From contig CP070695.1 of assembly GCA_020353515.1 (NCBI GenBank), positions 4,689,414 through 4,753,413 of the forward strand: a stretch of DNA of 64,000 bases, in the 5' to 3' direction. The notes under the pieces were generated by a model, which was given only the letters and a program-made list of their open reading frames with translations, had not been told where the DNA came from and made no database searches. The DNA comes from Candidatus Heimdallarchaeota archaeon. Lineage in GTDB: Archaea; Asgardarchaeota; Heimdallarchaeia; Hodarchaeales; Hodarchaeaceae. Of the stretch, positions 13,160-51,972 are shown one piece after another (the first letter of the stretch is position 1; each line of letters starts with the position of its first letter). Position numbers and translations under genes: made by a program.

Positions 13160-13936
13160 TTATTCTTGTAAAAACCTTTCTAAAGTGGATTGTTTTTTTG
13201 AAGGGGTAACAAGTTTTCCGAATCGTGCTTTCTGCTGGATAATTTCTTTGTATTCTTCTCTAATTTCAAATCCTACTACGTCTCGGCCTGTTTGACGTGC
13301 TGCTAATATCGTACCACCACTTCCTGAAAAAACATCACCCACAAGATCACCAGGTGAGCTAGAGGTGAGAACTAATTTTTCTAAAAGAACAATTGGTAAT
13401 TGACACGGATGTCCTTTAATTCGGTGAGGATCATTACCCCGATTATACTCTGGCCAGAAGAATACGTCTTCATCATAATGTTTCTGCTTATAGAACTGAT
13501 AATTCTTCTTATTTTTAACCAATAGAAGGATATGATAATGACTTGTAACGAATCGTCTCTTTGTATACACCCCCCACGAAAAATACCATATTGCATGGTT
13601 TAACACATGGAATTTTGATTCATCGATGGCATTCAAGATAAATTGTAAATTAGTCCATCCTGAAATAATATAAAGACTCCCATTTTCTGTTAAAGCTTCA
13701 TGACAAGATTCAATCCATGCTTTAGAAAACTGGAAATATGATTCTGGAGTGAATTTGTCTTCATATAAATCATAATCATCAGCTCCATACTCATGACTAG
13801 ATTTATTAAACGCAATTCCGAATGGAGGATCAGCAATGATTAAATCAAAGAGTCGTTCTCTTGCTTTCCATGGTAATGTTTCAAGTACATCTCCAATTAT
13901 GAGTTCGTATTTTGATTCACTTATCATTTCGAACAC
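13160..13936 (-). CDS. DNA methyltransferase, beta class (N6A/N4C), with C-terminal PIP-box-like peptide
   Basis: DPPF (motif IV) before HPCQLP and DVFSGSG (motif I); ends KKQSTLERFLQE. Confidence 0.92.
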   Translation of the reverse strand: MFEMISESKYELIIGDVLETLPWKARERLFDLIIADPPFGIAFNKSSHEYGADDYDLYEDKFTPESYFQFSKAWIESCHEALTENGSLYIISGWTNLQFILNAIDESKFHVLNHAIWYFSWGVYTKRRFVTSHYHILLLVKNKKNYQFYKQKHYDEDVFFWPEYNRGNDPHRIKGHPCQLPIVLLEKLVLTSSSPGDLVGDVFSGSGGTILAARQTGRDVVGFEIREEYKEIIQQKARFGKLVTPSKKQSTLERFLQE

Positions 13937-13937
13937 G

Positions 13938-16070
13938 TTAAGATGATGGAGCGACTAGGTCATAACACGATTCCCAAACCTCTTGTTGAGGTAGAAGATT
14001 CCCTGAATGTGTAACAACCTGATATTTAGAATCCATTTCGAGAAGTATTCCTGAATAAATTGCTAAGTAATCAAAATCTTTAACTACAATATCTGCTTTT
14101 CTGAATGTTTCAAGCCGTTCTTTGTACTGCTGTTCAAAAATATTCATGAATTCATCCAAAATAATGTGTTGGTGTTGCTTTTGAATCTTAATACGACAAA
14201 CGACAACTAAATCAAAAGCGATGGCTCTCTTTTTTTGAATGTTTAGGACATTACGAGCTTCACTCGGAATTGGATGTGTTTTAACTACCTGAAATCCAGA
14301 TCTTAAAATAACATCAGCTAGTTTGAGCCATATTCGTTTATCAGAGTGATGAAAGGTAAAAACTAATAAACCGCTAGGCTTAAGCTTCGATTTTATAACA
14401 CTAAATATCTCAACTAGTTTATCGTAGTAGTTTAAGAGCCGATCAGGACTAACAATAGCTTCATCTTCCTTCGGTGTTTCTTCTGCTACAAACCATTTGT
14501 ATTTATCTTTAAGAACTAAACGTAACCATACATAGAAAAAATCTGATAATTCTGAATAGTTTATATTATCAGCATAGGGAGGATCTGAAATGATGAGATC
14601 AATAGATAATGGAAGATCTTTGATATCTTCCGAGTCTTGGCAAAGTAATAATAATTTTTTATCAATTGATGGAAACTCTTTAGAATATTCAGAAATAGCT
14701 TTTCCATCAATTTTTCCTGAGAAAAATTTCTGTTTGACTGATCTTCCTGTTGATGAAAGACTTCGTTGATAGTTAAAAGGAGTAAGATTATATTCTTTTC
14801 CCTTCAACAGGCGACTAAGACATTTTTTCCAAGTCCCTCTTCCATATTTTGTTCCCCAAACATTATTCTCAGCAAATGTGGAGAGAGGATGAAAGTCGTG
14901 TCGGGCAAAAATCCCCTCTACTTTCTGACCTTTAGGAGAATACCTTGTAAAGACATTATTATGATTTAGAAGATTTATAAATGCCGCTAAGAACATCTCT
15001 TGATAACGAGAATCAGGAATCTCATGAATATATTGGAGGATCAATGTGAGAGTTAATAATTGACGTTCATTAAATAAATCAACCCATTTTTTGTAATTAT
15101 GGTTATGAAGGGTCTTTGTTGCTACTCCAAATGGAACCGATTCTCTTGGCCACTGAAATTTAACTGAAGAACGTATCCAATACTCTTTTGCAGCATTAAA
15201 TAGATCAAGATCAGAATTAGAAATCCCTTTTATGAATTTGAATCTGGTGGTTTTGAGAGGCGAGTCTTGATCATTTGCACAATTTTCACAAAAACCTTCG
15301 ATAGCGTATAATTTACTTTTTAAAATTTGTTGATTATTCTTTAGAGCGTCAAGTATATTGGTTGTGTCACCACACTTCGAACATTTACAGGAATTCCGTC
15401 CAATCCGATTCCCCATTAGTGGATTGAATTTAAATTGGCATTGTGGGCATTTTAGTGACGTTGGAATAGAACCTAAGTGATTAAAAACAGTAACACATGA
15501 AGGACATAATATAGAGGAAATTTCACCTTTTATGGCAACTAAGAAATCTCGAAATAGAGAAATCTGGTTATTACATGTCAAACAGGGAACCAATTTAACC
15601 CAATGTGCATATATGATGTCAGCTTGGTGGTTACATATTGGACATTTAGTTATGTACCATTTTTTGATTTGAGGTTTAATCTTCTTTTCGCAGTCTTGAA
15701 TCCATTGTTGAAGTTCCTTTAAATTCACTAGTTCAGCTTCTGTTTTTGTAATAAACCATGCAACAGGGTTAATATCTATACCAATACAATTTAAACCTAG
15801 ACGTAAACTTTCGATGACAGTAGTCCCTCCTCCCACAAAAGGATCGATCACAGTAACATTGGAAAAGTCGTGATCGTCATAGAAGTTTGCCATAAGGTCT
15901 GCAGACGGGGGTAATAACGCTCCCAAAAGTAAGGCTCGAAAAGTAGAGGAGGACCGTCTAGCAAACCATTTTGAAATTTGATAAATTGGTTTATAACTAC
16001 TTCTTTCGGGGATAGCTAGTTTGCTAACCTCATAAATAGGAAATCTTTGTTCTATCAAACGACTAGTCAT
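13938..16070 (-). CDS. DUF1156-type adenine DNA methyltransferase with multiple Zn ribbons
   Basis: KWFARR, DPFVGGG, several CxxC pairs, DLFNERQ, SDPPYADNINYSELSDFFYVWL. Confidence 0.9.
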   Translation of the reverse strand: MTSRLIEQRFPIYEVSKLAIPERSSYKPIYQISKWFARRSSSTFRALLLGALLPPSADLMANFYDDHDFSNVTVIDPFVGGGTTVIESLRLGLNCIGIDINPVAWFITKTEAELVNLKELQQWIQDCEKKIKPQIKKWYITKCPICNHQADIIYAHWVKLVPCLTCNNQISLFRDFLVAIKGEISSILCPSCVTVFNHLGSIPTSLKCPQCQFKFNPLMGNRIGRNSCKCSKCGDTTNILDALKNNQQILKSKLYAIEGFCENCANDQDSPLKTTRFKFIKGISNSDLDLFNAAKEYWIRSSVKFQWPRESVPFGVATKTLHNHNYKKWVDLFNERQLLTLTLILQYIHEIPDSRYQEMFLAAFINLLNHNNVFTRYSPKGQKVEGIFARHDFHPLSTFAENNVWGTKYGRGTWKKCLSRLLKGKEYNLTPFNYQRSLSSTGRSVKQKFFSGKIDGKAISEYSKEFPSIDKKLLLLCQDSEDIKDLPLSIDLIISDPPYADNINYSELSDFFYVWLRLVLKDKYKWFVAEETPKEDEAIVSPDRLLNYYDKLVEIFSVIKSKLKPSGLLVFTFHHSDKRIWLKLADVILRSGFQVVKTHPIPSEARNVLNIQKKRAIAFDLVVVCRIKIQKQHQHIILDEFMNIFEQQYKERLETFRKADIVVKDFDYLAIYSGILLEMDSKYQVVTHSGNLLPQQEVWESCYDLVAPSS

Positions 16071-16080
16071 TTAGGTTGAC

Positions 16081-16716
16081 CTATTGCTTAGACACGAAAT
16101 GCATTAGCTCTTCTGGAGTTTTAAAGATATAATCTGGTTGACTTGCAATAAGTTTTGATTCTTCAATGGTTCCCCAAAGGGCAGCAGCAGTTTTTATTCC
16201 AGCAGCTTTTCCAGCTATTACATCTAGAGGGCTATCCCCAATAAACAAAATTTCAGCTTTATTTAAGTTTAAAACGCTTATTATACGAAATAACGCGTCT
16301 GGATAAGGTTTTGAACGTTCTACATCATTTCCAGTTAGTACCATATCAAAAATTTGAGTAATTCCGAGTTTTTCTAAGGTCATTTGCATTGTTTTTCTTG
16401 ATTTCCCAGTAAAAATTGTTAAGTGCTGAACATGCTCTTTCATGTCATTTAATTGATCAATAGAAAAAAAACCTTTGGTAGGATGGATTGTATTATACTG
16501 ATATAAGAATTCATTCCAAGCAGGGGTCAAAACATTAGAGGGAAAAACATTTTTGAATATTTCATCACCAGGAGGTCCCCATAAAGAAATTACATCCTGT
16601 TTACTCATTTTTTTACCAAGATACTTCAAAACTACCTCTTGAAATAATCGAATAATGAGATTGGCGTTATCAACAAGTGTACCGTCCACATCAAAAACCA
16701 GACAGCTAAGTTTCAT
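16081..16716 (-). CDS. HAD-family phosphatase (PGP/PpaX-like)
   Basis: FDVDGTL, TGK, KPYPD, GDSPLD. Confidence 0.92.
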   Translation of the reverse strand: MKLSCLVFDVDGTLVDNANLIIRLFQEVVLKYLGKKMSKQDVISLWGPPGDEIFKNVFPSNVLTPAWNEFLYQYNTIHPTKGFFSIDQLNDMKEHVQHLTIFTGKSRKTMQMTLEKLGITQIFDMVLTGNDVERSKPYPDALFRIISVLNLNKAEILFIGDSPLDVIAGKAAGIKTAAALWGTIEESKLIASQPDYIFKTPEELMHFVSKQ

Positions 16717-16799
16717 AACAGAAGAACATCCATTAGGAGACTAAAAATAGGATGGTTTAAATATTTTTAAACACGAGCCCAAATGAGTAAAGATGGTTA

Positions 16800-17603
16800 G
16801 TGATGGGTGACGAACCAAAGATTGACTCCCGAAATAAGCTCAATAGCCTTACTGGACGTCAATGGATCCGTTTCACAAAATCATGGTATATAGCTGATGG
16901 AAAATCAAGTGATATTTCCCATGAAATTGACTTACATCCCGCTTCATTTCCTCCACCAATGATTCGTGAATTCATTGAATTTTTCACAAAACCGGGAGAT
17001 AGTGTCTTGGATCCGTTTTTAGGCACAGGATCAACCTTAGTTGCCTGTGATGAGTGTGGACGACAAGGAATAGGGATAGAACTTTATGAAAAATACGTGA
17101 AGACAGCACGGGCTCGTACAGACCTTCCTATTCATCAAGGTGATTCCCGAGATATTGTGAAAACTCTAATCCAAAATGGAGAGAAATTCTCTCTCTGTAT
17201 CACATCACCTCCATATTGGCGTATATTGAAGAAAAAAAAGGATTATAATCAACAAAAACGTCTTCAAAAGGGATTAGATCTTAAGTATGGGGAACATCCA
17301 AAGGATTTGGGAATGATTGAGGAGCGAGTTACTTTCCTATCAGAACTTGTCATTTTTTTCAAGTTGATCAAAGATTTATTGCTAGAACATGGACATTTAG
17401 TGATCTTTGTCCAAAATATTCGAGATAAGGGGGAAATAAATCCTCTAGCCTTTGAGTTAGCCCTTAAATTAGCAAAAGATTATAAATTCTTAGGGGAACG
17501 CATCTGGCTTCAGAATCAGAAGACTTTACGGCCATATGGGTATCCCTACTCTTTTGTACCGAACATTCACCATCATTACGCCTTAATTTTTCAAAAGCGG
17601 TAA
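16800..17603 (+). CDS. N4-cytosine-type DNA methyltransferase, alpha class
   Basis: HPASFP, VLDPFLGTG (motif I) before TSPPY (motif IV). Confidence 0.88.
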   Translation: MMGDEPKIDSRNKLNSLTGRQWIRFTKSWYIADGKSSDISHEIDLHPASFPPPMIREFIEFFTKPGDSVLDPFLGTGSTLVACDECGRQGIGIELYEKYVKTARARTDLPIHQGDSRDIVKTLIQNGEKFSLCITSPPYWRILKKKKDYNQQKRLQKGLDLKYGEHPKDLGMIEERVTFLSELVIFFKLIKDLLLEHGHLVIFVQNIRDKGEINPLAFELALKLAKDYKFLGERIWLQNQKTLRPYGYPYSFVPNIHHHYALIFQKR

Positions 17604-17635
17604 AAGGAGAGAGTTACTATTTACAAAGGAAAGAC

Positions 17636-18991
17636 ATGACAATGCAAGTAATACCTTATGGTGGGGTTAATGAGATAGGTGGAAACACGATCCTTGTTGA
17701 GACAAACAGTACAAAAATATTGTTGGATTTCGGGAAAAGTTTTAAACAAGAGGGAACCTATTTTGAAGGCTTTTTACTTCCACGTACATTCCAAGGTCTT
17801 AAAGATTTTCTTGAATTCGATATTTTACCTAGAATAAAAGGCCTCTATGCTCAAGAATATGCATTGGACAATGAATTCTCTGAACATACTGTTGATGCGT
17901 GTCTTTTATCTCATGCACATTTAGATCATTTTGGAAACTTGAATCTCATTGATAAGAGTATCCCTATCTTCATGGGGGAAACTACAGCAACAATTATTCA
18001 GTCAATCCAAGATACAACACGAACCCGCTTTGGACGGCCTTATATTTGGCAAGCAACTGCTGAAAATCCCTCTAATTTTAGAACGTTTCGGACTGGCGAC
18101 GTAATTCAACTAAAGGATTTTGAAATAACTCCCATACATGTCGACCATTCTCTACCTGGTTCTTATAGCTTTATTGTTGAAGGTCAGCAAAAAAAATTAG
18201 GATATACGGGTGATCTTCGTTTACACGGTTGGAGAGAAGATTTAACTAAGGATTTTATTGAAGTTGCAAAGCAAAAGAATCTGGATGTTCTGTTGATTGA
18301 AGGTACGAATATTAATGAAGATTTTGACATGAATGAGAGAAAAGTACAGGAAGAACTGTCACAAGCGATCACAAGGACTGATGGTTTAGCGATTGCCAAT
18401 TATAGTTTACGAGATATCGATCGTTTTCGTTCTTTCTACTTAGCTGCTAAAGAGAATGGCCGAAAACTGTTGATAAACGTTAAGCAAGCATACCTGCTTC
18501 GACTATTACAGGATGATCCTCATCTTGAGATTCCCACGTTAGATGATCCTCTTATTGAAATCTATAAACGACCTAAGAGAAAATACTACAAATGGGAAAA
18601 TTTTCTTTTTAAAAACCACTCTATGGTCGAATCGTCAGATTTTGATCAAACCGAATATATCTTTCACTGTGAGTTCTGGAACCTGACAGATCTCATTGAT
18701 ATTCAACCTCACCCTAAAAAATCTACCTATTTCTACAGTCATGGAGAGCCATTCGATGAAGAGGGAGCTATCGATTTCAGGAGACTTCAGGAATGGGTTA
18801 ACCATTTTCAATTGGATTTTAAACAATACCATGCAAGTGGCCATGCTCCCCGTAGTGATCTTAAAAGAATCGTAGAGGAAATTCAACCACAATTAGTGAT
18901 CCCAATTCATACAGAACACCCTGAAATGTACCAGGAAATCTTAGACATACCAATACTTCTTGCTACGCGAGGACGAACGATTTCAATCTAG
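17636..18991 (+). CDS. Metallo-beta-lactamase/beta-CASP nuclease (RNase J-like)
   Basis: GGVNEIGGN, SHAHLDH, HVDHS, YTGD, HASGH, PIH. Confidence 0.88.
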   Translation: MTMQVIPYGGVNEIGGNTILVETNSTKILLDFGKSFKQEGTYFEGFLLPRTFQGLKDFLEFDILPRIKGLYAQEYALDNEFSEHTVDACLLSHAHLDHFGNLNLIDKSIPIFMGETTATIIQSIQDTTRTRFGRPYIWQATAENPSNFRTFRTGDVIQLKDFEITPIHVDHSLPGSYSFIVEGQQKKLGYTGDLRLHGWREDLTKDFIEVAKQKNLDVLLIEGTNINEDFDMNERKVQEELSQAITRTDGLAIANYSLRDIDRFRSFYLAAKENGRKLLINVKQAYLLRLLQDDPHLEIPTLDDPLIEIYKRPKRKYYKWENFLFKNHSMVESSDFDQTEYIFHCEFWNLTDLIDIQPHPKKSTYFYSHGEPFDEEGAIDFRRLQEWVNHFQLDFKQYHASGHAPRSDLKRIVEEIQPQLVIPIHTEHPEMYQEILDIPILLATRGRTISI

Positions 18992-19004
18992 AATATCAAT
19001 TGAA

Positions 19005-33243: not shown

Positions 33244-35094
33244 GTGGTGAACAACCACTACCTAAAGGAAGAAGACTCTTTGCAGGAGAAAGTTAGAATA
33301 AAGTCTTTAGGGCAATACTTCACTCCTGTTAATATCGTTCAACTTATGATCGATCTAATCTCGACAAACTCAAAAGCAAAAATTCTTGAACCAAGTGCTG
33401 GTAAAGGTATTTTTCTTTCACAATTAGTTAGTAAGGGATATGAGAATCTCACTGGGATAGAAATTGATCCCAATCTTGCAAAACAATCATCAATTCCGAT
33501 AAATATTGGAAATTTTTTTGATTTTCCTATTTCAAGAAAGTTTGACGTCGTTATCGGAAACCCACCATACATTCGGTGGAAGAACCTCTCACTTGACCAA
33601 CGAAAATATTTCAATTCTACATTATTCTGGCAGAAACGCATGAATGGTTTAACAGACATTCTACAACCATTTATTTTTAAAAGCGTAGATCACTTAAAAC
33701 CAGGGGGAGAATTAATTTTTATTACACCACTCTTTTGGATGCAAACTCTTCATGCTGAGCCATTAAGAAGGTTCTTATTAGAAAATGGCTCTCTAGAGGT
33801 AATTATTAATTTTCATGAAACCCGAATTTTTCCGAAAGCAAACCTTAATCTTGTGATTTTCAAATATCGAAAAGAAAAGCAAAAACAACTTCTAAAAATT
33901 ATTAACTATTGGCAAAAAGGAAAACTAAATCCTGATATTCTTGAAAATATCCGTTGGCTCCTTCATGATCCATCATCTTGGAAATCAACCGCGACAAACG
34001 ATGGCAATCTAGAATTTTTTCAGACTCATCAACCTTACAACTCATCACCTTGGCGATTTCTTCCACTTGAGACTGAAGAAAAATTATCATTGTTTGAAAA
34101 AGCATGTCAATTTTCACCAGAAATTGATGTAAATGGGCATAAAATACGTCTTTCACACCTATATTCAAAGAATGACCTCATATTAATGGAGTATCCTAAA
34201 AAAATGTGCAAAAAAATGTATTTGGATCAAAAAACTTATTTTATACCACTTTCTAAAGCTCTATTGACAGAGTATTTCACGAATAATGAAGATTTTTCAC
34301 AATCGCTCCCTCCACGCTATATACAAATTGGGGATATCGTTGAGATCGGTAATGGTATGGTGAGCGGTCTAGACAAAGCATTCCAGTTAAAATTTGACAC
34401 ACATTTGAATAAAGAAGAAAAGGAATTAATTATCCCTGTGGTAAAAGCAAAATCCATACGTCGTTTTTACGCAGAATCTTTAACCCAATATTTTCTGGTT
34501 AAACCTGACATTATTTCCACTGAAAATGATCTAAAAAGAAACTTCCCTTCCCTATATGAACAACTTCTACCGTTCCAAGACGCTTTAAGGAAAAGATATC
34601 AATATAACAGGGAAATTCCATATTGGGAATGGGTTTTCATCAGAAACTACAAACTAATGAAAGATGCAGAAGCTTTAATCTGTGTTCCTTGTAAGGATCG
34701 ATTTGACAAAAGAAAACACTTTCGATTCGCTCTGTGTGAAAAGGGTATATTTACGACACAAGATGTCACCGTTTTGGTGAAATTCAACTGGGTCAAAGAA
34801 TCCCTTGAATATATAACTGCTTTCTTAAATAGCAAGGAAGTTTTTGATTGGGTCATAAATAAAGGTCTTATAAGGGGGGGAGTCGCAGAATTTTCAGAAG
34901 AACCCTTGAAACGTATTCCATTTCGTCTAATTGATTGGAATTCTCCAACTGAATGCCAGATTCACGATAGGATTGTAGAATTAGTACAAGATATCTTTTC
35001 AACTAAAAAAGAAAATGTTTCAAAGATTTCTGAGATTAATCTGTTGGTTTCTCAGCTGATTGATCTTGGAAAAAAAAATTCTCAACAATTATAA
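33244..35094 (+). CDS. N6-adenine DNA methyltransferase, gamma class (Eco57I/TaqI-like)
   Basis: LGQYFTP, LEPSAGKG, NPPY, AFLNS. Confidence 0.92.
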   Translation: MVNNHYLKEEDSLQEKVRIKSLGQYFTPVNIVQLMIDLISTNSKAKILEPSAGKGIFLSQLVSKGYENLTGIEIDPNLAKQSSIPINIGNFFDFPISRKFDVVIGNPPYIRWKNLSLDQRKYFNSTLFWQKRMNGLTDILQPFIFKSVDHLKPGGELIFITPLFWMQTLHAEPLRRFLLENGSLEVIINFHETRIFPKANLNLVIFKYRKEKQKQLLKIINYWQKGKLNPDILENIRWLLHDPSSWKSTATNDGNLEFFQTHQPYNSSPWRFLPLETEEKLSLFEKACQFSPEIDVNGHKIRLSHLYSKNDLILMEYPKKMCKKMYLDQKTYFIPLSKALLTEYFTNNEDFSQSLPPRYIQIGDIVEIGNGMVSGLDKAFQLKFDTHLNKEEKELIIPVVKAKSIRRFYAESLTQYFLVKPDIISTENDLKRNFPSLYEQLLPFQDALRKRYQYNREIPYWEWVFIRNYKLMKDAEALICVPCKDRFDKRKHFRFALCEKGIFTTQDVTVLVKFNWVKESLEYITAFLNSKEVFDWVINKGLIRGGVAEFSEEPLKRIPFRLIDWNSPTECQIHDRIVELVQDIFSTKKENVSKISEINLLVSQLIDLGKKNSQQL

Positions 35095-42860: not shown

Positions 42861-45299
42861 TTACTCTTCGTTGATTATTGTGACTGTGAATGATTGCCTC
42901 GTACTATACCCAAGTACATCATAAACGGTAACAACAACAAGATATTTCCCAGGATTAGAGTATTCATGAGTTATAGACGCTTGAACATTTCTCAAAACCT
43001 TCTTTCCCCTCATTTCACGATAGGAATACCACTTTGCTTCAAATTGTCCGTTCTGATGATCCCAATCTATTGCCCAAAAATCAATGAAGTTAATAAAATC
43101 ATGAGTTATTCTTATATCTATGGGTTTGCTCAGACTAAAGGCTACAATGGTTATCTTTAGCTTTCTTCCTACAACTTTTGTTTCTAATCTAACCATTGGA
43201 TTTGTCATTTCACCTTTCGGTGTATGAGAAGGAGAAAGGGAATCTGATGAATCTATCGTATTTAAAATTTCGAAGGGCATATTATTGGGGATCTTCAGAA
43301 GTCTCTTCCTTACTTCATGTATTGAATATTTACCAATGTCAACCCCTACCCACATTCTTCCCAACTTCTCTGCAACTGCAAGTGCAGTTCCAGATCCACA
43401 GAAGAAATCAGCAATTATATCCCCTTTTTCAGTAGAAATTTCTATAATTCGTGTTAAAAGAGCTTCAGAATTTTCAGTTGGATATAAAGTCTTCTTTAGT
43501 TTTTCATAACCTGCGATGTCAATCCAGAGATTGTCACTGGAATACTGTATTTCTGCTGTATCCTGGTTCTTTCTTCTCTTTTTTTTAATTGTTGATGACT
43601 TTAATTGCGCTGATTCACTGTTTTGATAAGCAAAAACTGAATCTGAATGTACTATCAAATGTGTCTGATTATAGGCTTGTTTTAATGATAAATTTTTCTT
43701 CATTCTTCGCACTAAAAACTCATTGACAAAGTTTTGAGAGCCAAAAACTTCGTCTAAAACCATTCTAGCATAATGACCAAAATGGTAATCAAAGCGCACA
43801 AAAATAAGCCCATCATCCTGAAGAAGGGATCTCATCGGTTGAATACGCTTCTTAAACCATTGTTTAAAGAATTCAATAGGATCTGGAACCTCAATGACAT
43901 TTTTATAAGCCAAGTCCTCAATCGGAAAGACAATATTCTCTCCAGCGTTAAATTCCTGCCCTTCTGATAAACCAATGGGAATTATAATTTTTTCATTTGC
44001 TCCAGTGAAAAAGGGAGGATCGATATATATTATTTTCAGTTTTTTTTGTATTTTCTGATTCAAGCACGGTAATACTTCAAAAACATCCCCTAAAATCAAC
44101 ATATTCGCCCATTCATCAGATTTTTCTTTATTAGAGCTTGAAATTTGACCTAGATACCTTTCAATTAACTTCAGTGAAAATCTATTCGTAGAAGAAAAAT
44201 CGTTTACTGTGTCAATGGCATCATTTTTGGGATAAAGAGAGAGTGGAAAATCAGGTAAAGATTCACAATTATACGCAGAAAAGAATGTTCCTTTATCCTT
44301 AAGTAATTCCATTATAAGTTTAAAGGCGTATTGATCTTCCTCTAATCCTATCCATTTCAATCTCAATTGCTCTGCAATTATTAAAGACATTCCTAGATTA
44401 GTAGATAGATCTAAAAAGAGTTCCTGCTCATTTAAACACATTCTAAGCAGTCTTGTGTAAAAATCTGAAGAACTTGTAAAATATTTATTCACCCATTGAT
44501 AGCTGCAAATATCTAGCCAGTTAGAGTCAATAATCTGTCCCTTTTTTTGGGGAACCCAGTATTCAGGATTCCCCTTCCTATTCAATCGGATCTGACCTTT
44601 TGTACATAAATCAAGAATAGCCTCCTGTTTCAATTTCCAATGAGTTCCTGGGGGAGGCGTTAAAATAATCTCCCCAATGTCTTCAAAAATAAATTTTTTA
44701 GGATTACCCTGTCCTTTAGAGACAAAAGAATGCCAATACCCACCACTTTCTTTTTCATTTAACACAGGATTAATTCGCGGATTAAGATTTTGAGAATAAA
44801 GGAGAATAAAATTGGTTCTTTCAAACACTGTAGAATTGGGGGTGTACCAAACTTTATAGGGAGAATCAATTATTATTTCATTAACAAACCGATCAGAACC
44901 AAAGATGACATCCATTCTAGATTTCAAACCTGACTTTATTGTCCCATTTACCTTGATTGCGATGAATCCCTCCTCATGTAACACTAGTTTGCACCTATCT
45001 AGCAACTGTTGAGTTTTTCTCCAGAATTCGTTATTAATTTCCTTTTTTTCAGGTAATTTGGAATATTCTTCTCTTCTTTCCATTACAATTTCTTTGATAT
45101 CTTCGACCAGCTCTATTTTTGTTGGCTGATAATACATTGATAGATCCAAAAAGATTAACCGAGGATTTAAGCTCTTAAAAAATGATTTAAGATTCTCAAG
45201 GATATTGATTTTCGATCCTAATAGAATTAACTTATTGGTATCTTCAGGATGATTATCTTCTAAATGTTTAATCTCTGTCATTGATGAAGCGTGGATCAT
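42861..45299 (-). CDS. Type III Mod-like DNA methyltransferase with tandem degenerate and active MTase domains
   Basis: C-half IYIDPPF and DFFCGSGT; N-half aligned IFLDLSM and DLSTNLGM; Mod-type C-terminal domain (FWAIDWD...VYDVLG). Confidence 0.88.
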   Translation of the reverse strand: MIHASSMTEIKHLEDNHPEDTNKLILLGSKINILENLKSFFKSLNPRLIFLDLSMYYQPTKIELVEDIKEIVMERREEYSKLPEKKEINNEFWRKTQQLLDRCKLVLHEEGFIAIKVNGTIKSGLKSRMDVIFGSDRFVNEIIIDSPYKVWYTPNSTVFERTNFILLYSQNLNPRINPVLNEKESGGYWHSFVSKGQGNPKKFIFEDIGEIILTPPPGTHWKLKQEAILDLCTKGQIRLNRKGNPEYWVPQKKGQIIDSNWLDICSYQWVNKYFTSSSDFYTRLLRMCLNEQELFLDLSTNLGMSLIIAEQLRLKWIGLEEDQYAFKLIMELLKDKGTFFSAYNCESLPDFPLSLYPKNDAIDTVNDFSSTNRFSLKLIERYLGQISSSNKEKSDEWANMLILGDVFEVLPCLNQKIQKKLKIIYIDPPFFTGANEKIIIPIGLSEGQEFNAGENIVFPIEDLAYKNVIEVPDPIEFFKQWFKKRIQPMRSLLQDDGLIFVRFDYHFGHYARMVLDEVFGSQNFVNEFLVRRMKKNLSLKQAYNQTHLIVHSDSVFAYQNSESAQLKSSTIKKKRRKNQDTAEIQYSSDNLWIDIAGYEKLKKTLYPTENSEALLTRIIEISTEKGDIIADFFCGSGTALAVAEKLGRMWVGVDIGKYSIHEVRKRLLKIPNNMPFEILNTIDSSDSLSPSHTPKGEMTNPMVRLETKVVGRKLKITIVAFSLSKPIDIRITHDFINFIDFWAIDWDHQNGQFEAKWYSYREMRGKKVLRNVQASITHEYSNPGKYLVVVTVYDVLGYSTRQSFTVTIINEE

Positions 45300-45318
45300 T
45301 GGTTAATCCAATACCAAT

Positions 45319-46599
45319 TTAATTTATTTCATCATTTATTGCCATCAAAATCCTTTTACTGCTTTTTAAATATAATGTTAAAGCTAGTGTTCCTAATAAA
45401 ATCACTAAACTGGATACTAAAAAAGCAATACGATACGCAACGACTGTTGGCTCCCCTAAGAATATCAATAGATCTGCTACAGGCCCTCCTACAATGAATC
45501 CAGCTAATCCCCACCCTGTAGCCAATGTAATGTTAAAAACAGCAAATCCTGTACCCCTTAATTCGTCAGGTAACAAATCTGCTGTATAAGCAAAAGAAAC
45601 GCTCTGTAATAAAGAAGAACATCCACCTAAAAGCGAGTAGATGATTGCGATAATGAGGAATGGCTGGTTTCCTAATAAAAAGAAAAGGAAATAACATATT
45701 CCTGCCCCAAATCCAGTAAGTACAACTATGGGGATTCTACCAATTTTATCCGAAATTCTTCCCCCAATAGGAGCAATGAGTCCTCCTGTTAAAGAAAAGA
45801 GAATAAGTAAATAACTAATAAAAGTGTTATCAAAGCTTAAGCCAGTTGGATCATTAGAATAATAGAGAAATATTTGGGTACTAGATGAAATTCCAATTAC
45901 TAATAATCCAATACATAGAATAAAAATTAAATACGAGCGGTTGGTTAATAACTCACGAATAGCCTTAGAAACTATTGTAGTTCGATCAAAATCGATCTTC
46001 TCGACTTGAGGTGAAAATTGAATAACCGTTGCACACAAGATCATCAAGATTACAACTACATAAAAGATCGTTCCTTCACTAAATCCTAGTCCATCACGAT
46101 AAAGAAGTCCGCTTAATAAGAAACCCACAATTTGTCCAATTAACCCAAATCCGTCTATAAAACCAACGAGTTGTCCACGTTGGTTTCCTTCTGTAGCCTG
46201 TGCAACAAGAAATCTTACTCCTAAATCGCTCATAGACCAAAATATTTCGAGAATTGATAAGAGAATTATCATAAGAAAAGCAGCACCAATTTTAGATCCC
46301 AATTCTAGGAGAAAATAATGTCCAATGAATGCAAGAAGGTATGTAAACGCTGCAATCAATTCTCCACGAACAACATATGGTCTAGCTAAAGAAGGACGAT
46401 CATTAAGTCGTGGACCCCAAAGCTTGAGTTGCCCAAATGTCGATCCAATTAGATTGGCAGTCCCTAGTAAGGCAGCAAGAGTGTTTGGTAACCCTAGGAA
46501 TGTTCTAAGATAGAGATAAAAGAAGGCGTAAAAGACAGCTCGTCTTAAGAATGAAATGAATTGAAAAATGCCAATTGGAAAAATAGTTCGAATACTCAA
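45319..46599 (-). CDS. MFS transporter
   Basis: 12 TM pattern, GRISDKIGR. Confidence 0.88.
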   Translation of the reverse strand: MSIRTIFPIGIFQFISFLRRAVFYAFFYLYLRTFLGLPNTLAALLGTANLIGSTFGQLKLWGPRLNDRPSLARPYVVRGELIAAFTYLLAFIGHYFLLELGSKIGAAFLMIILLSILEIFWSMSDLGVRFLVAQATEGNQRGQLVGFIDGFGLIGQIVGFLLSGLLYRDGLGFSEGTIFYVVVILMILCATVIQFSPQVEKIDFDRTTIVSKAIRELLTNRSYLIFILCIGLLVIGISSSTQIFLYYSNDPTGLSFDNTFISYLLILFSLTGGLIAPIGGRISDKIGRIPIVVLTGFGAGICYFLFFLLGNQPFLIIAIIYSLLGGCSSLLQSVSFAYTADLLPDELRGTGFAVFNITLATGWGLAGFIVGGPVADLLIFLGEPTVVAYRIAFLVSSLVILLGTLALTLYLKSSKRILMAINDEIN

Positions 46600-46726
46600 T
46601 ATGACCCCTACTATTCCAAAATAATCTAGAGGTCGTTTTTTGTATTTTTCGCTCTTTATGTAATTATCATGTTTAAATTCGCCAATAGGACTCTTTTTTG
46701 ATCTGAGGGATGTTAAAAATTAGGTT

Positions 46727-48328: not shown

Positions 48329-48402
48329 TTGTTAACTGACCTTAATACAGAAAGAATCTTTTTCTATCTCTTGTTATTACGTGTGTAGGGAAAATATCTG
48401 TT

Positions 48403-49476
48403 TCAAGATAAAATTGAATTAAGAGACAAATTTTTAGATTCTTTTGATTTAACGACGTTATTTAGAGATGTTTTAAAAGATAAAGCAGCCCAATAGTTAA
48501 AAATCAGTCTAAGATTTCCTGAAGTTCGTAATAGGAGCTCCAAATCATAAACTGAAGGTTGAGTTTTTTTATCCCTTAATTTCTCTAGTAGTTTTCCAAT
48601 TGTAGGCAAATCTTTCTCCATTTTATTTTTTAGCCGTTTCGGTTGATTATCGGGGAGGAGTAAAGCATCAAGGTTCTCCAATCCTCCTGATTTATTATCG
48701 ATTTCTTGAAGGATTTTGATAACTATATCTTTTTCAAATCCTTCACTAATTCTATGATGTGTTCCCCGCCATTTTGTCAAATTTCCCACTCCACGTTCAC
48801 CGCCTTTCGGTAAAAGCACCATATTTGACCCTGTGATACGCCAACGAGCAGAATCACTTCCATCGACTTTTTCTGCAAGTTTGTTGATAAGACTAGGTGC
48901 TCCTACTCCCAAAGCCCAAATTTTAACTTTTTCTAAAGCATCATACTGTCTTAGGATTGTCTTCAATTCATCGAGGACTGGAAATAATCGATTTGCGTGT
49001 CCTCCTCCTTTCCTCATCAAAGGAACAAGACGGCCAATGAAAAACCATTCAGGAAAACCCTCATTCAAGATAATTTCTCTCAATATTTCAACTCTGTCAT
49101 AAGGAACAACAGGTTGCACTTCTAAGGAGTATAGTTCTCTATAGTTTACTAAAATCTTGTCATCAGGAAAATCCAAAGTTATTTTTAGAATAGATGGATC
49201 CTGTTTAGTTATTTCTTGATATATCCTCTTCAATTCGTCTATGTCTAGATCTATCTTTTTTTTTCTATTTAATGCCGAGAAAGCACCAGAATCAAGTAAG
49301 ATTTTACCATCCCATCCAAGAGTATCATGAATCCCCTTTTTTACTACCTTTTGAAACAATCTAGGAGAACTAAAGAAGTCTATTGCGGATATCATCAATG
49401 CATCTGGTTTCAATGCCCAATCGTAAGTCCAAGGGCGAAATATCGCATTGATAGGAGTGCCAATAGCAAAGATCAT
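48403..49476 (-). CDS. TGT/DpdA-like transglycosylase paralog 1
   Basis: LLDSGAFS, ITLDFP, PVV, IGRLVP, WALGVG, GSDSARW; no Zn-binding cysteines, no PUA domain. Confidence 0.78.
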   Translation of the reverse strand: MIFAIGTPINAIFRPWTYDWALKPDALMISAIDFFSSPRLFQKVVKKGIHDTLGWDGKILLDSGAFSALNRKKKIDLDIDELKRIYQEITKQDPSILKITLDFPDDKILVNYRELYSLEVQPVVPYDRVEILREIILNEGFPEWFFIGRLVPLMRKGGGHANRLFPVLDELKTILRQYDALEKVKIWALGVGAPSLINKLAEKVDGSDSARWRITGSNMVLLPKGGERGVGNLTKWRGTHHRISEGFEKDIVIKILQEIDNKSGGLENLDALLLPDNQPKRLKNKMEKDLPTIGKLLEKLRDKKTQPSVYDLELLLRTSGNLRLIFNYWAALSFKTSLNNVVKSKESKNLSLNSILS

Positions 49477-49485
49477 TATTGTACC

Positions 49486-50010
49486 TCAAAATAGGAAATC
49501 TTCAAGGGATTTGGTTCTTGACAAATTCTCCAAGAATCGCACTAATTTTTGTTGTCCAACCCCAAGTCCACCCATATTTTCCACTATAATTTTTGTATCT
49601 ATATGAGTTTTTAAACCTTCAATAGCCTTTAAGTAGGTTTTTCCCATTAATATATAGATGTAGTCAAATTCCTCCTCTTTATTCCATCTGATTACCTCTT
49701 GGATTACCTGTGAATTATGTTTTCTAGCAAGATTTTCAGTCATTTTCAGATCATAATCTTTAATTAAATCAGTACTCCTAAGGAAGCCATATTTCGCAGA
49801 TACTATCCCTAAAAATAGGTGGGAACTCCATCTCCCCTCACGCTTAGCTTTCCTAATTACCTGAAACATTGGGCCTTTATAGGCCTCTGATGCACGTATT
49901 TCACGATTCTGTAACTCCAAGGCTTTTTTCTTACCACATGATATGATAAGTAAGACTTTTGGCTTTTTCAACAGAAGTACTCTCAAAAATAAAATATCTC
50001 TAAAGGTCAA
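49486..50010 (-). CDS. DUF6884-like protein
   Basis: LLIISCGKKK, A.EAYKGPMF, IVSAKYGFL, YDLKM, MGKTY, GLGVGQQ; real start possibly TTG 49971. Confidence 0.75.
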   Translation of the reverse strand: MTFRDILFLRVLLLKKPKVLLIISCGKKKALELQNREIRASEAYKGPMFQVIRKAKREGRWSSHLFLGIVSAKYGFLRSTDLIKDYDLKMTENLARKHNSQVIQEVIRWNKEEEFDYIYILMGKTYLKAIEGLKTHIDTKIIVENMGGLGVGQQKLVRFLENLSRTKSLEDFLF

Positions 50011-50909
50011 GATAACATTTTTTGGAGTCGTTCAGCATATTGATTACTTTTCTCATCGGCACCTGTAATTTTAATGCCTGATGGCTCTTGAACTCCTAAT
50101 TTTAGCTCTACAGCTCTTGCTATCTGTTCTTGTTCAAATACAGGGCCATTTGCTACTTCAGGTGTTGTACCAAGATCACGAAGGATTGTTACACCCACAG
50201 CATCAATAGCTATTCGATCTGTCCCTGCTAACATCACATGAGGATGTTCAAGTTTTCCTCTTGCTGGTCCTCCTTCAACAAAAGCGTCTATACCATCCAA
50301 AATCACTAATGTAGGAGTGTAAATCTGATTAATTTCAGCGATAAGTTTTCGCTGATGTGGAGAGGAATGAAGTTCACGCATGAATTCATAACCTTGTCGG
50401 GGGACAAAACCGACCGCTAATTTCAGTGAGAAAGTAAAATGTCCTCCAAATTGATGTGTTTTAAGACAGGGTAACGCAATAATAGCGTCTACACTTTGAA
50501 TGAATTTAGGAAAGAGAAAACCATTTTTCCAATTAGAATCACTCTGTTGGACTGGCTGAAACTGAATCCACTCTGAGTGAGGTAAGGAGGATAAATCTAG
50601 AATATCAAAACCTCCAATCTCTTTCTGTAGGGCAAATAATCCTTTGGTTTCCATAGTATCATGCGTATCTGCTGGGCCAGCTCGCTCTACAACAGTAATT
50701 TTCTTTACTCCACAAATCTTAAGGTGAGTGATTAATACTCGAATAATCTCAATATCTGTCGAAGCAGGGGGAGGGTCTGCTGTATTAAAATTGGGCTTAA
50801 TAGCGACTCTTTTACCTTTTAAAGCCTCAAAAAGAGACTTATAATAAGAGAAAATTATTTTCATCCCTTTGATTCTGTCATCAGTTTTAACAAGGAAGAC
50901 TTCAGTCAT
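50007..50909 (-). CDS. DUF362 family protein
   Basis: VAIKPN, LKTH...TFSLKL.VG, ILDG..EGGP, D.IAID. Confidence 0.88.
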   Translation of the reverse strand: MTEVFLVKTDDRIKGMKIIFSYYKSLFEALKGKRVAIKPNFNTADPPPASTDIEIIRVLITHLKICGVKKITVVERAGPADTHDTMETKGLFALQKEIGGFDILDLSSLPHSEWIQFQPVQQSDSNWKNGFLFPKFIQSVDAIIALPCLKTHQFGGHFTFSLKLAVGFVPRQGYEFMRELHSSPHQRKLIAEINQIYTPTLVILDGIDAFVEGGPARGKLEHPHVMLAGTDRIAIDAVGVTILRDLGTTPEVANGPVFEQEQIARAVELKLGVQEPSGIKITGADEKSNQYAERLQKMLS

Positions 50910-51036
50910 CTTAGAACCACCTGGTCTGTAAAATCTGTTATGAACACTTATCCCCTTAAATTAATAAGTTGCTAGAATTCCCTTATGAGAACTAATCATC
51001 AATATCTAGATTATTAGGTGTATCGAGGTAGTACCT

Positions 51037-51972
51037 TTGCGCTTATATTTAGGCGTTGTTCCAGGAATTTTTCCATGGTTGAAGGAGGACATTATTCACA
51101 AAAATATGACACGTATTTATGCAGGAGTTATTTTTTCATACTGGTCATTTCGAAAAAAAATCCAAAATATAATCTCGAAAGGACTTCATGATTATTTTTC
51201 TTTTGATGGACCTATTATGGTAGATTCTGGGGCTTATAGTGCCTTTAATTCTGGTGTAAATATTGACATTGACGATTATTTGTCTTTTATATCGAAAATT
51301 GATATGAAAGACGATGATACTATTGTTAATCTTGATGTGATTCAAAATCCAAGAAAGTCAAAACAGAATTGGAGATACTTAACGAATAAGTTGGATATCA
51401 ACGTTTTGCCAGTGATTCATCTACCTGAAGCAGGAAATTCATATTTCTCTGAAGATTATATAGGACTGGGTGGGATGGTGCCAGCATTCAAAATAAATCA
51501 AACTGGGAGTGTGAAAAATGTAGCTGCTTGGTTGGTTTCATTAGATCAGACCGTAAACAAAAAGTATCATGGATTTGGTGTTGGAAGTCCATATCATCAA
51601 ATTGCATTTCTTGACTTCCTTTATTCGGTAGATTGGATTGGTTGGCGAAGGAATGCAGCAGTCTGTTCATGTTACACCCCTGAAGGATCAATTTATATTC
51701 ATGAGGCTCGTAAAAAGAAAAAGAAGGGAAGAAGAATTACAGAGGAGATATTTAATCTTTATGCTCCCCCATTCATCGATTCATACGAGATGTTATATCG
51801 AGAGGGCACAGAGGGGTGGGTAAATCGTGCATTGTGGAATGTATGGTGGTTTCTACTTGCAAAAGACTATAAAGGTCAAATTGAAGTCTCTAGCTATGTT
51901 CTTTCTTTGAAAAAAACAATTCGTCAAACAGAACTGGAATATAGGACAATGGATCTTGGTCAATTCTTATGA
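51037..51972 (+). CDS. TGT/DpdA-like transglycosylase paralog 2
   Basis: MVDSGAYS, VNLDVI, LPVIH, IGLGGMVP, YHGFGVG, YSVDWIGW; no Zn site. Confidence 0.8.
   Translation: MRLYLGVVPGIFPWLKEDIIHKNMTRIYAGVIFSYWSFRKKIQNIISKGLHDYFSFDGPIMVDSGAYSAFNSGVNIDIDDYLSFISKIDMKDDDTIVNLDVIQNPRKSKQNWRYLTNKLDINVLPVIHLPEAGNSYFSEDYIGLGGMVPAFKINQTGSVKNVAAWLVSLDQTVNKKYHGFGVGSPYHQIAFLDFLYSVDWIGWRRNAAVCSCYTPEGSIYIHEARKKKKKGRRITEEIFNLYAPPFIDSYEMLYREGTEGWVNRALWNVWWFLLAKDYKGQIEVSSYVLSLKKTIRQTELEYRTMDLGQFL

What the first reader, a model, noticed from the sequence alone, without database searches (positions are those of the whole stretch)
13160..51972. Recurrent PIP-box-like tails on DNA-modification proteins: possible PCNA-tethered modification
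Seen: the beta-class MTase ends KKQSTLERFLQE (13160-13198), closely matching the archaeal PIP consensus QxxLxxF[F/L]. DUF6884 ends RTKSLEDFLF (49486-49518), TGT paralog 2 ends RTMDLGQFL (51943-51972) and TGT paralog 1 ends KNLSLNSILS (48403-48435, weak). The MTase at 33244 has KALLTEYF in an insertion (34255-34278). Known: C-terminal PIP boxes dock FEN1, PolB and RNase HII on PCNA, and eukaryotic DNMT1 uses a PIP box. Inference: these enzymes ride the sliding clamp to modify newly replicated DNA, which resembles maintenance marking more than restriction. It also argues for a DNA rather than tRNA target of the TGT paralogs.
Basis: partly seen in the sequence, partly recalled or inferred. Interest (0 to 1): 0.85.

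Follow-up and report, generated by a model that had tools for sequence, protein, structure and literature searches.

The report
Clamp-docking tails on Asgard DNA-modifying enzymes
In this Asgard (Hodarchaeales) archaeon a DNA methyltransferase and two enzymes of a probable DNA base-exchange module end in short conserved peptides like those its replication proteins use to dock on the sliding clamp PCNA, so DNA marking here is probably coupled to the replication fork, although binding is untested.

Summary
All five quoted peptides are in the sequence at the stated coordinates. Three look like real short linear motifs. These are the tails of the beta-class methyltransferase (QSTLERFL), the DUF6884 protein (KSLEDFLF) and TGT-like paralog 2 (MDLGQFL).

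- **Host and native motif.** The genome is an Asgard (Hodarchaeales) archaeon with one PCNA and no beta clamp. Terminal x-x-x-L-x-x-F-[FL] tails in it pick out FEN1, two PolB, RFC large subunit, NucS, Nre and Hel308, often without the Q.
- **Methyltransferase.** Its L-[DE]-x-[FY]-[LF] is kept in 59 of 59 orthologs behind a variable linker.
- **Other methyltransferases.** Five more PF01555 methyltransferases in the genome carry such tails (6 of 26, against 3.3% background).
- **DUF6884 and TGT2.** About 40% of orthologs keep the motif. The rest mostly lack the extension altogether.
- **Rejected or undecided.** The TGT1 tail is not conserved and is rejected. The internal KALLTEYF is undecided.

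TGT2 has a TGT fold. DUF6884 is YaaA/DpdC-like, and a normal archaeosine TGT lies elsewhere in the genome. This favours a DNA target for the TGT paralogs.

PCNA binding itself is not shown. No paper describing this was found. This scan has reported the same pattern before, on other Asgard and haloarchaeal DNA.

The parts
13160..13936 (-). Beta-class (DPPF, N6-adenine-type) DNA methyltransferase, 258 aa by ORF and 255 aa in the database. The MTase domain covers residues 31-234, followed by a roughly 24-aa linker and tail.
   Evidence: PF01555 139 bits. NCBIfam adenine-specific MTase/CcrM-like. Present in 19 of 21 genus genomes.
13169..13192 (-). QSTLERFL: canonical C-terminal PIP-box motif of the methyltransferase, 2 residues from the end.
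   Evidence: L, acidic, aromatic and L/F are invariant or nearly so in 59 orthologs behind a variable linker. Near-identical to the A. fulgidus consensus PIP peptide KTTQSTLDSFFK (PMC4929162).
13938..16070 (-). 710-aa DUF1156-type DNA methyltransferase, directly upstream in the same operon. No PIP-like tail.
   Evidence: The adjacency is conserved in 16 of 18 genus loci.
49486..50010 (-). DUF6884 (YaaA/DpdC-like) protein with the CxxxK and SAxxG motifs. The database form is 161 aa.
   Evidence: PF21818 51.9 bits and PF03883 32.4 bits. PADLOC DpdC E=5e-4. Pfam paper PMC11701544.
49489..49512 (-). KSLEDFLF: Q-less PIP-like tail of DUF6884, at the extreme C-terminus.
   Evidence: x-S-L-x-D-F-[LM] is kept in about 40% of Asgard orthologs and is absent from distant, non-Asgard-like homologs.
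51037..51972 (+). TGT-fold paralog 2 (311 aa), catalytic barrel only. Invariant DSG (D63), LD (D100) and SVDW (D199).
   Evidence: AF2 pLDDT 91.6. ArcTGT 1iq8 Z 25.3 and DpdA 7ui4 Z 21.0. Foldseek E 8e-10. Invariant columns.
51946..51969 (+). TMDLGQFL: Q-less PIP-like tail of TGT2, at the extreme C-terminus.
   Evidence: Close orthologs read RRLSLDQFF, LDKFF, LDxYL or LNYYF. The last 10 residues of the model have pLDDT about 51.
48403..49476 (-). TGT-like paralog 1 (357 aa). Its tail KNLSLNSILS is not a docking motif.
   Evidence: The tail is not conserved and has no aromatic pair.
50007..50909 (-). DUF362 protein between DUF6884 and TGT2. An accessory member of the module, missing in some relatives.
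   Evidence: PF04015 122 bits. Present in L052 and absent in L053.
42861..45299 (-). 812-aa tandem beta-class methyltransferase, a conserved flank of the module. No PIP-like tail.
45319..46599 (-). MFS transporter inside the module. Present in some relatives.
52069..53409 (-). 446-aa DNA methyltransferase convergent with TGT2. No PIP-like tail.
33244..35094 (+). Eco57I/TaqI-type gamma-class DNA methyltransferase (616 aa).
34255..34278 (+). Internal KALLTEYF (residues 338-345). Conserved L-x-x-[YF]-[FLI] in a variable segment. Status undecided.

Best explanation
Three proteins of this Hodarchaeales (Asgard) genome end in short C-terminal PIP-type docking peptides that most likely bind the single PCNA. 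They are the small adenine-type beta-class DNA methyltransferase, the DUF6884 (DpdC/YaaA-like) protein and TGT-like paralog 2.

Proposed mechanism (inferred): the peptide L-[DE]-x-[FY]-[FL] lies at or near the protein's C-terminal end; in the methyltransferase a variable linker of about 15 residues precedes it, while in DUF6884 and TGT2 it follows the last helix within a few residues. It inserts into the hydrophobic pocket of PCNA, as the tails of FEN1, RFC-L, PolB, NucS and Nre do. The enzymes would then be concentrated on newly replicated DNA and could restore their marks just behind the fork.

The methyltransferase is a near-core orphan-like enzyme of the genus, in an operon with a DUF1156-type methyltransferase.

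DUF6884 and TGT2, with TGT1 and an 812-aa methyltransferase, form a conserved chromosomal module. The module resembles the DpdA/DpdC part of the bacterial Dpd system. It probably exchanges or modifies a base in DNA, not tRNA.

Shown here: the sequences, the fold, motif conservation, enrichment and synteny. Inferred: binding to PCNA, replication coupling and the chemistry of the mark.

The TGT1 tail is chance. The internal motif of the Eco57I-type methyltransferase is undecided.
For: 1. PCNA is present and there is no beta clamp.
2. A blind scan of 4267 ORF ends for Q..L..F[FL] gave 6 hits: Nre, PolB, DUF72, FEN1, this methyltransferase and one unannotated ORF. The Q-less form adds NucS, Hel308, RFC-L, an HhH-GPD glycosylase and a second PolB. 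The organism's real clamp clients therefore often lack Q.
3. FEN1 of 20 genus genomes always ends L-[DE]-x-F-F.
4. Methyltransferase: the motif is invariant in 59 orthologs of 65-100% identity while the linker varies. It is present in all 19 genus genomes that have the gene. Homologs of about 45% identity in another family stop at the domain end and lack it. Its Pfam domain ends at residue 234 of 258.
5. Two further methyltransferase families of the genome keep L-x-x-F-L tails across the genus: 10 of 12 and 13 of 13 orthologs of at least 63% identity. Six of 26 PF01555 genes have such a tail against 3.3% background (odds ratio 9, p=1.6e-4).
6. TGT2: the tail is either present with the motif or absent. 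Of about 39 orthologs that have the extension, 35 have L and 31 have F/Y. Close orthologs read LDQFF, like the native clients. The end of the model has low confidence.
7. DUF6884: x-S-L-x-D-F-[LM] occurs in 31 of 78 Asgard orthologs, while distant homologs end at the domain.
8. DNA context: DUF6884 is described as a DNA-binding, base-flipping candidate related to YaaA (PMC11701544). DpdC is DUF328/YaaA-family and acts on DNA (PMC5699537 and PMC10164549). The module is syntenic in relatives beside TFIIB, HflX and YjbQ genes.
Against: - No physical or structural evidence of binding exists.
- The window's tails end in F-L, whereas the core replisome clients of this genus end in F-F. The affinity, or even the partner, could differ.
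- The TGT2 copy in this genome (MDLGQFL) has G where an acidic residue is usual.
- About 60% of DUF6884 and TGT2 orthologs lack the motif, so it is dispensable for the module.
- In DUF6884 and TGT2 the motif follows the last helix after only a few residues, not after a long linker.
- The loose motif also occurs at the ends of alpha/beta hydrolases, GNATs, a glyoxalase and a GTPase in this genome, where it is probably just a terminal helix.
- The count within the window is not significant on its own.
Confidence: 0.68

Rival explanations
1. The tails are real conserved docking peptides, but for a hub other than PCNA. Candidates include another replisome or chromatin protein, or each other within a TGT1/TGT2/DUF6884 complex, with the C-terminal amphipathic turn packing on a partner subunit.
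For: The modification enzymes use [FY]-L rather than the F-F of the core clamp clients. In DUF6884 and TGT2 the motif abuts the last helix. Tail presence in DUF6884 and TGT2 on the same contig is weakly correlated: both 8, neither 9, one only 9.
Against: The methyltransferase tail is almost the consensus archaeal PIP peptide. Unrelated methyltransferase families, which have no reason to share a private partner, carry the same motif. Close TGT2 orthologs read LDQFF exactly like FEN1. The correlation is not significant (p=0.12).
Confidence: 0.12
2. For DUF6884 and TGT2 the resemblance is fortuitous. The tails are drifting C-terminal extensions with no docking function, and only the methyltransferase is a clamp client.
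For: The motif is missing in about 60% of orthologs. There is no Q. This genome's TGT2 copy is degenerate (G at the acidic position). The loose motif gives false positives. The window-level count is not significant.
Against: Where the extension exists it nearly always carries L and an aromatic pair at fixed spacing: 35 and 31 of about 39 TGT2 orthologs with an extension. Frequencies of 38-40% are more than tenfold above the 3.3% background. Two unrelated proteins of one module acquired the same motif.
Confidence: 0.15
3. The whole pattern is chance plus shared ancestry, and none of the tails is functional.
For: Relatives share sequence by descent. Short hydrophobic motifs are common.
Against: The motif is invariant while the adjacent linker is saturated with changes. 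There are independent gains in at least three methyltransferase families. It is absent from the domain-only homologs. It is enriched with p=1.6e-4.
Confidence: 0.04

Closest known systems
Archaeal C-terminal PIP-box clients of PCNA (FEN1, RFC large subunit, PolB, NucS/EndoMS, NreA/B, Hel308; review PMC4929162)
   Same: A terminal Q/x-x-x-L-x-x-aromatic-aromatic/L peptide conserved across orthologs (on a variable linker in the methyltransferase). The same motif marks these families in this very genome.
   Different: The carriers are DNA-modifying enzymes (methyltransferases, a TGT-fold enzyme, a DUF6884 protein). None is in the published archaeal client list that I could find. The second aromatic position is usually L, not F.
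Eukaryotic DNMT1-PCNA coupling (PIP box in DNMT1; from established knowledge, not tested here)
   Same: A DNA methyltransferase carrying a PCNA-docking peptide, which implies methylation at the replication fork.
   Different: DNMT1 is a C5-cytosine enzyme with an N-terminal-region PIP box. Here the enzymes are small beta-class N6A/N4C-type enzymes (PF01555) with a C-terminal motif. There is no homology of the catalytic parts, so this is an analogy, not membership.
Bacterial Dpd modification machinery DpdA/DpdB/DpdC (Salmonella Montevideo; PDB 7ui4; PMC10164549, PMC5699537)
   Same: A TGT-fold enzyme without tRNA-binding domains, paired with a YaaA/DUF328-like protein. DpdA inserts preQ0 into DNA and DpdC modifies it on DNA. 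TGT2 aligns to 7ui4 with Z 21.0.
   Different: No DpdB-like ATPase and no DpdD-K restriction genes lie in the locus. There are two divergent TGT paralogs. DUF6884 matches DpdC only weakly (E 5e-4). QueC is at best doubtful in the genome. The base inserted is unknown. A clamp-docking tail is not described for Dpd.
Haloarchaeal virus HRTV-29, which encodes a DpdA homolog and a YaaA-like protein (PMC8651126)
   Same: The archaeal pairing of a DpdA-type and a YaaA-type gene without a preQ0 pathway.
   Different: That is a viral genome. Here the module is chromosomal and vertically inherited. The paper does not mention clamp docking.
Orphan cell-cycle methyltransferases CcrM and Dam
   Same: A stand-alone adenine-type methyltransferase kept as a near-core gene. 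NCBIfam CcrM-like hit E 3.8e-27, below the family cut-off.
   Different: CcrM and Dam are not known to dock on the clamp. Timing in Caulobacter is set by transcription and proteolysis.

Membership tests
PIP-box client of PCNA | Motif Q-x-x-[LIM]-x-x-[FYW]-[FYWL] | tested here: met
   The methyltransferase (QSTLERFL) fits fully. DUF6884 and TGT2 fit except for Q, and RFC-L, NucS and Hel308 of this genome also lack Q. TGT1 does not fit.
PIP-box client of PCNA | Motif lies at a terminus outside the folded domain, in a flexible segment | tested here: met
   The methyltransferase Pfam domain ends at 234 of 258. The last 10 residues of TGT2 have pLDDT about 51 in a model of mean 91.6. The DUF6884 domain ends at 155 of 174, but its linker is short.
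PIP-box client of PCNA | Motif conserved among orthologs while flanking residues vary | tested here: met
   Methyltransferase 59/59. TGT2 and DUF6884 about 40% overall, and about 80-90% among TGT2 orthologs that carry the extension. TGT1 0/9.
PIP-box client of PCNA | Physical binding to the PCNA hydrophobic pocket / interdomain connector loop | not testable with these tools
   Needs ITC, pull-down or a co-structure.
Beta-class N6A/N4C DNA methyltransferase (PF01555) | Pfam match above the gathering score, with DPPF and FxGxG motifs | tested here: met
   139 bits against a cut-off of 26.7. IIADPPFG and VFSGSGGT are visible.
DUF6884 (PF21818) | Pfam match above the gathering score, with CxxxK and (L)SAxxG motifs | tested here: met
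   51.9 bits against a cut-off of 30. The motifs are as described in PMC11701544.
DpdC (DUF328/YaaA family) | Significant match to DpdC models | tested here: inconclusive
   PADLOC DpdC E 5e-4 over about 60 residues. PF03883 32.4 bits against a cut-off of 29.6. A superfamily relation, not shown orthology.
TGT superfamily | TIM-barrel TGT fold with the DSG aspartate and a distal nucleophile Asp | tested here: met
   1iq8 Z 25.3, rmsd 4.3, 285 residues aligned. 7ui4 Z 21.0, rmsd 3.4, 266 residues aligned. D63, D100 and D199 are invariant. The Pfam TGT match is below the cut-off (16 bits).
DpdA (DNA-guanine transglycosylase) | Closer to DpdA than to tRNA TGTs, with a DpdB partner and preQ0 supply | tested here: inconclusive
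   DpdA ties with bacterial tRNA TGTs and ranks below ArcTGT. No ParB-like gene lies in the locus. The QueC hit is only 32 bits over 65 residues.
Archaeosine tRNA-guanine transglycosylase (ArcTGT) | Match above the equivalog cut-off, with C-terminal C1/C2/PUA tRNA-binding domains | tested here: not met
   TIGR00432 30.8 bits against a cut-off of 350. The protein is 311 aa with the barrel only. A true ArcTGT lies at C1:243097 (E 4.5e-82, 654-aa frame).
DNMT1-type maintenance methyltransferase | C5-cytosine methyltransferase catalytic domain | tested here: not met
   The catalytic domain is PF01555 beta-class, not C5. The resemblance is functional only.

The most novel reading that the evidence does not exclude
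Hodarchaeales couple several kinds of DNA marking to the replication fork through PCNA. These are adenine/cytosine methylation by a set of PIP-tailed orphan methyltransferases, and a chromosomal Dpd-like base exchange by a TGT1/TGT2 pair with a DpdC-like enzyme. PCNA would take the DNA-loading role that the DpdB ATPase has in bacteria. [quoted passage not shown]
Probability: 0.3. Interest if true: 0.85.

Novelty: new variant of a known kind. Interest (0 to 1): 0.62.

Why it matters
PCNA-coupled DNA methylation is a hallmark of eukaryotic epigenetic inheritance (DNMT1). No archaeal DNA methyltransferase or DNA base-exchange enzyme appears among the described PCNA clients that I could find.

If these tails bind PCNA, Asgard archaea restore DNA marks at the fork through the same hub that eukaryotes use. 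Replication-coupled maintenance of DNA marks could then be tested in the lineage nearest to eukaryotes. A clamp tether would also be an independent argument that the enigmatic TGT-like/DUF6884 module acts on chromosomal DNA. It would point to an undescribed DNA modification in these organisms.

The tails are short and the prediction is cheap to test with peptides and recombinant PCNA.

Tried and rejected
- **Complex prediction.** PCNA (residues 1-256, 18-row alignment) was folded with the last 50 residues of TGT2 (40-row alignment). The result was no verdict: score 0.27 and 0.04 against a mark of 0.32, and controls were not run. This is neither for nor against binding.
- **TGT1 tail.** Rejected: no aromatic pair, and not conserved in 9 representatives.
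- **Window-level enrichment.** 3 of 51 genes, p=0.24. Rejected as evidence.
- **Looser regex.** A version allowing the motif up to 12 residues from the end was dropped for DUF6884, because it hits the KLVRFL of the domain's last helix.
- **Profile search of TGT2 against PDB sequences.** Only marginal hits (E 0.03). The fold search was needed.
- **PADLOC.** No defence-system assignment for TGT1, TGT2 or DUF362.
- **Second DUF6884 gene** (C1:2364312-2364797). It has no PIP-like tail.
- **Second tier of loose-motif hits.** These proved to be hydrolases, GNATs, a glyoxalase and a GTPase. The loose motif alone is therefore not diagnostic.
- **Literature.** Searches for an archaeal PCNA-binding methyltransferase or DpdA found none. 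A search for the P. furiosus RFC-L peptide I remembered found nothing, so that recollection is not used as evidence.
- **Internal KALLTEYF.** The AF2 model was too weak (mean pLDDT 66.7, 13-row alignment) to decide.

Full report
**The observation.** Translation of the five stated stretches gives exactly the quoted peptides:
- The 258-aa protein at 13160-13936 (-) ends KKQSTLERFLQE.
- The DUF6884 protein at 49486-50010 (-) ends RTKSLEDFLF.
- TGT-like paralog 2 at 51037-51972 (+) ends RTMDLGQFL.
- TGT-like paralog 1 at 48403-49476 (-) ends KNLSLNSILS.
- The 616-aa methyltransferase at 33244-35094 (+) has KALLTEYF at residues 338-345.

Pfam confirms the families. They are PF01555 (139 bits), DUF6884 (51.9 bits, plus YaaA 32.4 bits) and Eco57I/N6_Mtase/TaqI_C. 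The two TGT-like proteins match TGT only below the threshold.

**The organism.** The window lies in a single 4.94-Mb contig of 35.8% G+C. It has one PCNA and no bacterial beta clamp. Names attached to the closest homologs place it in the Hodarchaeales/Heimdall group of Asgard archaea. A PCNA-docking reading is therefore biologically possible.

**What a native docking tail looks like here.** I took 4267 non-overlapping ORFs of the genome and scanned their last residues.
- The strict form Q..L..F[FL] within 4 residues of the end occurs 6 times (0.14%). Pfam identified the hits as Nre, PolB, DUF72, FEN1, the window's methyltransferase and one unannotated ORF.
- The Q-less form L..F[FL] occurs 56 times (1.3%). 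It adds NucS, Hel308, the RFC large subunit (encoded next to PCNA), an HhH-GPD glycosylase, a second PolB, a radical-SAM/HhH protein with its DUF4130 neighbour, and another PF01555 methyltransferase.
- The organism's accepted clamp clients thus end in x-x-x-L-[DET]-x-F-F, and Q is often missing.
- FEN1 of 20 genomes of the genus always ends L-[DE]-x-F-F.
- The loose motif is not diagnostic alone. A second tier of hits are alpha/beta hydrolases, GNATs, a glyoxalase and a GTPase, where it is probably a terminal helix.
- Three hits among the window's 51 genes is not beyond chance (p=0.24).

**The methyltransferase tail.**
- The database search gave 672 homologs. Among 59 orthologs of 65-100% identity the L is 59/59, the following acidic residue 57/59, the aromatic (Y36, F23) 59/59 and the last position L/F/I 59/59. 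In the eight linker positions before the motif the commonest residue reaches only 20-40%. This is the signature of a short linear motif on a variable linker.
- The gene is present once in 19 of 21 genomes of the genus, always with the tail. Homologs of about 45% identity in another family of the class stop at the end of the catalytic domain. More distant Asgard homologs (Sigyn-, Loki-, Hel-, Hermodarchaeota) again end in forms such as TLTSFL or DLTTFL.
- The tail is nearly the A. fulgidus consensus PIP peptide KTTQSTLDSFFK used in the PCNA co-crystal (PMC4929162).
- The gene lies directly downstream of a 710-aa DUF1156-type methyltransferase in 16 of 18 genus loci. No nuclease was recognised next to it.

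**It is not alone.** The genome has about 26 PF01555 genes.
- Six end in L-x-x-[FW]-[LM] within 5 residues of the end. That is 23% against 3.3% background (odds ratio 9, p=1.6e-4).
- For two of these families I fetched genus orthologs. The tail is kept in 10 of 12 (LDNFL, LERFL, LSTFL, LTRYL...) and in 13 of 13 orthologs of at least 63% identity (LTDFM, LTDYL, ITDFF, LDNFL, LSEFL...), again behind variable linkers.
- Within the window, however, only one of the seven methyltransferase genes has such a tail.

**DUF6884 and TGT2.**
- DUF6884: 31 of 78 orthologs of at least 49% identity end in x-S-L-x-D-F-[LM]-x. The others end shortly after the domain or have degenerate tails. Distant homologs (41% identity or less) end at the domain's last helix.
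- TGT2: 25 of 65 orthologs carry the motif within 5 residues of the end. Of about 39 that have the extension at all, 35 have L, 31 have F/Y and 36 have a hydrophobic last residue. The closest orthologs read RRLSLDQFF, LDKFF and LEVFF, like FEN1. Others read LDxYL or LNYYF. This genome's copy, MDLGQFL, is among the more degenerate.
- The AF2 model of TGT2 is confident (pLDDT 91.6) except for the last 10 residues (about 51).
- On 26 contigs that carry both genes, the tail is present in both on 8, in neither on 9 and in one only on 9. This association is weak and not significant (p=0.12), and relatives are not independent.
- The motif is therefore a gained and lost appendage, far above background but not essential to the module.

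**TGT1 and the internal motif.**
- TGT1 has no aromatic pair, and its tail differs in all 9 representatives. I reject it.
- In the internal segment of the Eco57I-type enzyme, L is 14/14 and the aromatic 12/14 in genus orthologs, with variable residues around it. It falls in a stretch (residues 337-374) of pLDDT below 50, but the model as a whole is poor (mean 66.7, 13 rows). It could be an internal docking motif or a poorly modelled structural element. I leave it open at roughly one in three.

**What the TGT/DUF6884 module is.**
- TGT2 has the TGT barrel. ArcTGT 1iq8 gives Z 25.3 (rmsd 4.3, 285 aligned). The DNA preQ0 insertase DpdA 7ui4 gives Z 21.0 (rmsd 3.4, 266 aligned), tied with bacterial tRNA TGTs. 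DSG, LD and the distal Asp are invariant.
- TGT2 lacks the C-terminal tRNA-binding domains of ArcTGT. A full ArcTGT is encoded elsewhere.
- DUF6884 is described as a YaaA-related, DNA-binding, probably base-flipping protein (PMC11701544). It matches PADLOC's DpdC weakly (E 5e-4). DpdC is a DUF328/YaaA-family enzyme that converts preQ0-DNA to ADG-DNA (PMC5699537, PMC10164549). A haloarchaeal virus likewise pairs DpdA and YaaA genes (PMC8651126).
- The order 812-aa methyltransferase, (MFS), TGT1, DUF6884, (DUF362), then divergent TGT2 and another methyltransferase is conserved in two other Heimdall-group contigs, beside TFIIB, HflX and YjbQ genes.
- This supports a chromosomal, vertically inherited DNA-modification module with no recognisable nuclease and no DpdB. 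Which base is handled is unknown. The QueC hit in the genome is doubtful.

**Mechanism proposed.** The steps shown are the sequence motifs, their terminal position, their conservation, the enrichment among DNA enzymes, the folds and the synteny. The inferred steps are these:
- The tails insert into the PCNA pocket.
- The enzymes are thereby held on newly synthesised duplex.
- Marks are restored behind the fork.
- For the module, one tethered subunit (TGT2 and/or DUF6884) brings the rest, possibly as a TGT1/TGT2 heterodimer in the manner of eukaryotic QTRT1/QTRT2.

**Rivals.**
- A different hub protein or intra-complex contacts. The [FY]-L ending differs from the F-F of core clients.
- Non-functional drift for the two weaker tails.
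- Pure chance.

**Known or new.**
- The kind (PIP-box client) is textbook, and PCNA-coupled methylation is known for eukaryotic DNMT1.
- I found no paper describing an archaeal PCNA-docking DNA methyltransferase, DpdA-like or DpdC-like enzyme. The 2016 review lists none and mentions only a methyltransferase that co-purified with NucS.
- Within this scan the same pattern has been reported on other genomes: Asgard methyltransferases, a TGT, a DpdC-like enzyme, and a haloarchaeal PCNA-DUF6884-DpdA operon. My results agree with those notes but were obtained independently here.

**Verdict.** It is a new variant of a known kind, of moderate to high interest, awaiting a simple binding test.

Noticed in passing
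G000:C1:2187135-2187962; C1:2485006-2486202 and 2486218-2486829; C1:4583904-4584656; C1:4313766-4314575 (outside the window): Further proteins end in native-type PIP tails. They are DUF72 (RQMSLREFF), a radical-SAM/HhH protein (RQTSLKEFYR) with its adjacent DUF4130 partner (SSKQLDEFFHS), an HhH-GPD glycosylase, and a RadA/KaiC-like 269-aa protein (HQVPLTQFW). All are candidate PCNA clients.
   Followed up: partly
G000:C1:4069459-4070313 (L001/L022), outside the window: PCNA of this genus carries a roughly 30-residue D/E-rich C-terminal tail with conserved Trp (...DEDWDEDDE). It is only about 29% identical to PCNA of the other families of the class.
   Followed up: partly
window 13160-16716: The PIP-tailed methyltransferase lies 1 nt downstream of a 710-aa DUF1156-type methyltransferase, which follows a HAD phosphatase gene. 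The two-methyltransferase adjacency holds in 16 of 18 genus loci. No DUF499 ATPase or helicase of the usual DUF1156 systems was seen.
   Followed up: partly
whole genome G000: About 26 PF01555 DNA methyltransferase genes occur in a 4.9-Mb genome, seven methyltransferase genes of several classes in this window alone.
   Followed up: partly
homologs P0069, P0076, P0112, P0114 of the window methyltransferase: More distant homologs from unnamed metagenome contigs end in ...GRWF, ...KAQWF and ...KAWF. This is a different terminal aromatic motif after a basic stretch.
   Followed up: no
window 9386-9844 (+): A 152-aa ORF ends KTRIDDLFDFEIED. This is a weak PIP-like or acidic-aromatic tail on a protein I did not annotate.
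   Followed up: no
window 45319-46599 (-) and L052:6014-7300: An MFS transporter sits inside the TGT/DUF6884 module here and in one relative. The QueC match in the genome is weak (32 bits over 65 residues). The module may depend on an imported base.
   Followed up: no
G000:C1:2361092-2364797 (outside the window): A second DUF6884 gene (161 aa, no PIP-like tail) lies about 2 kb from another PF01555 methyltransferase (429 aa).
   Followed up: partly
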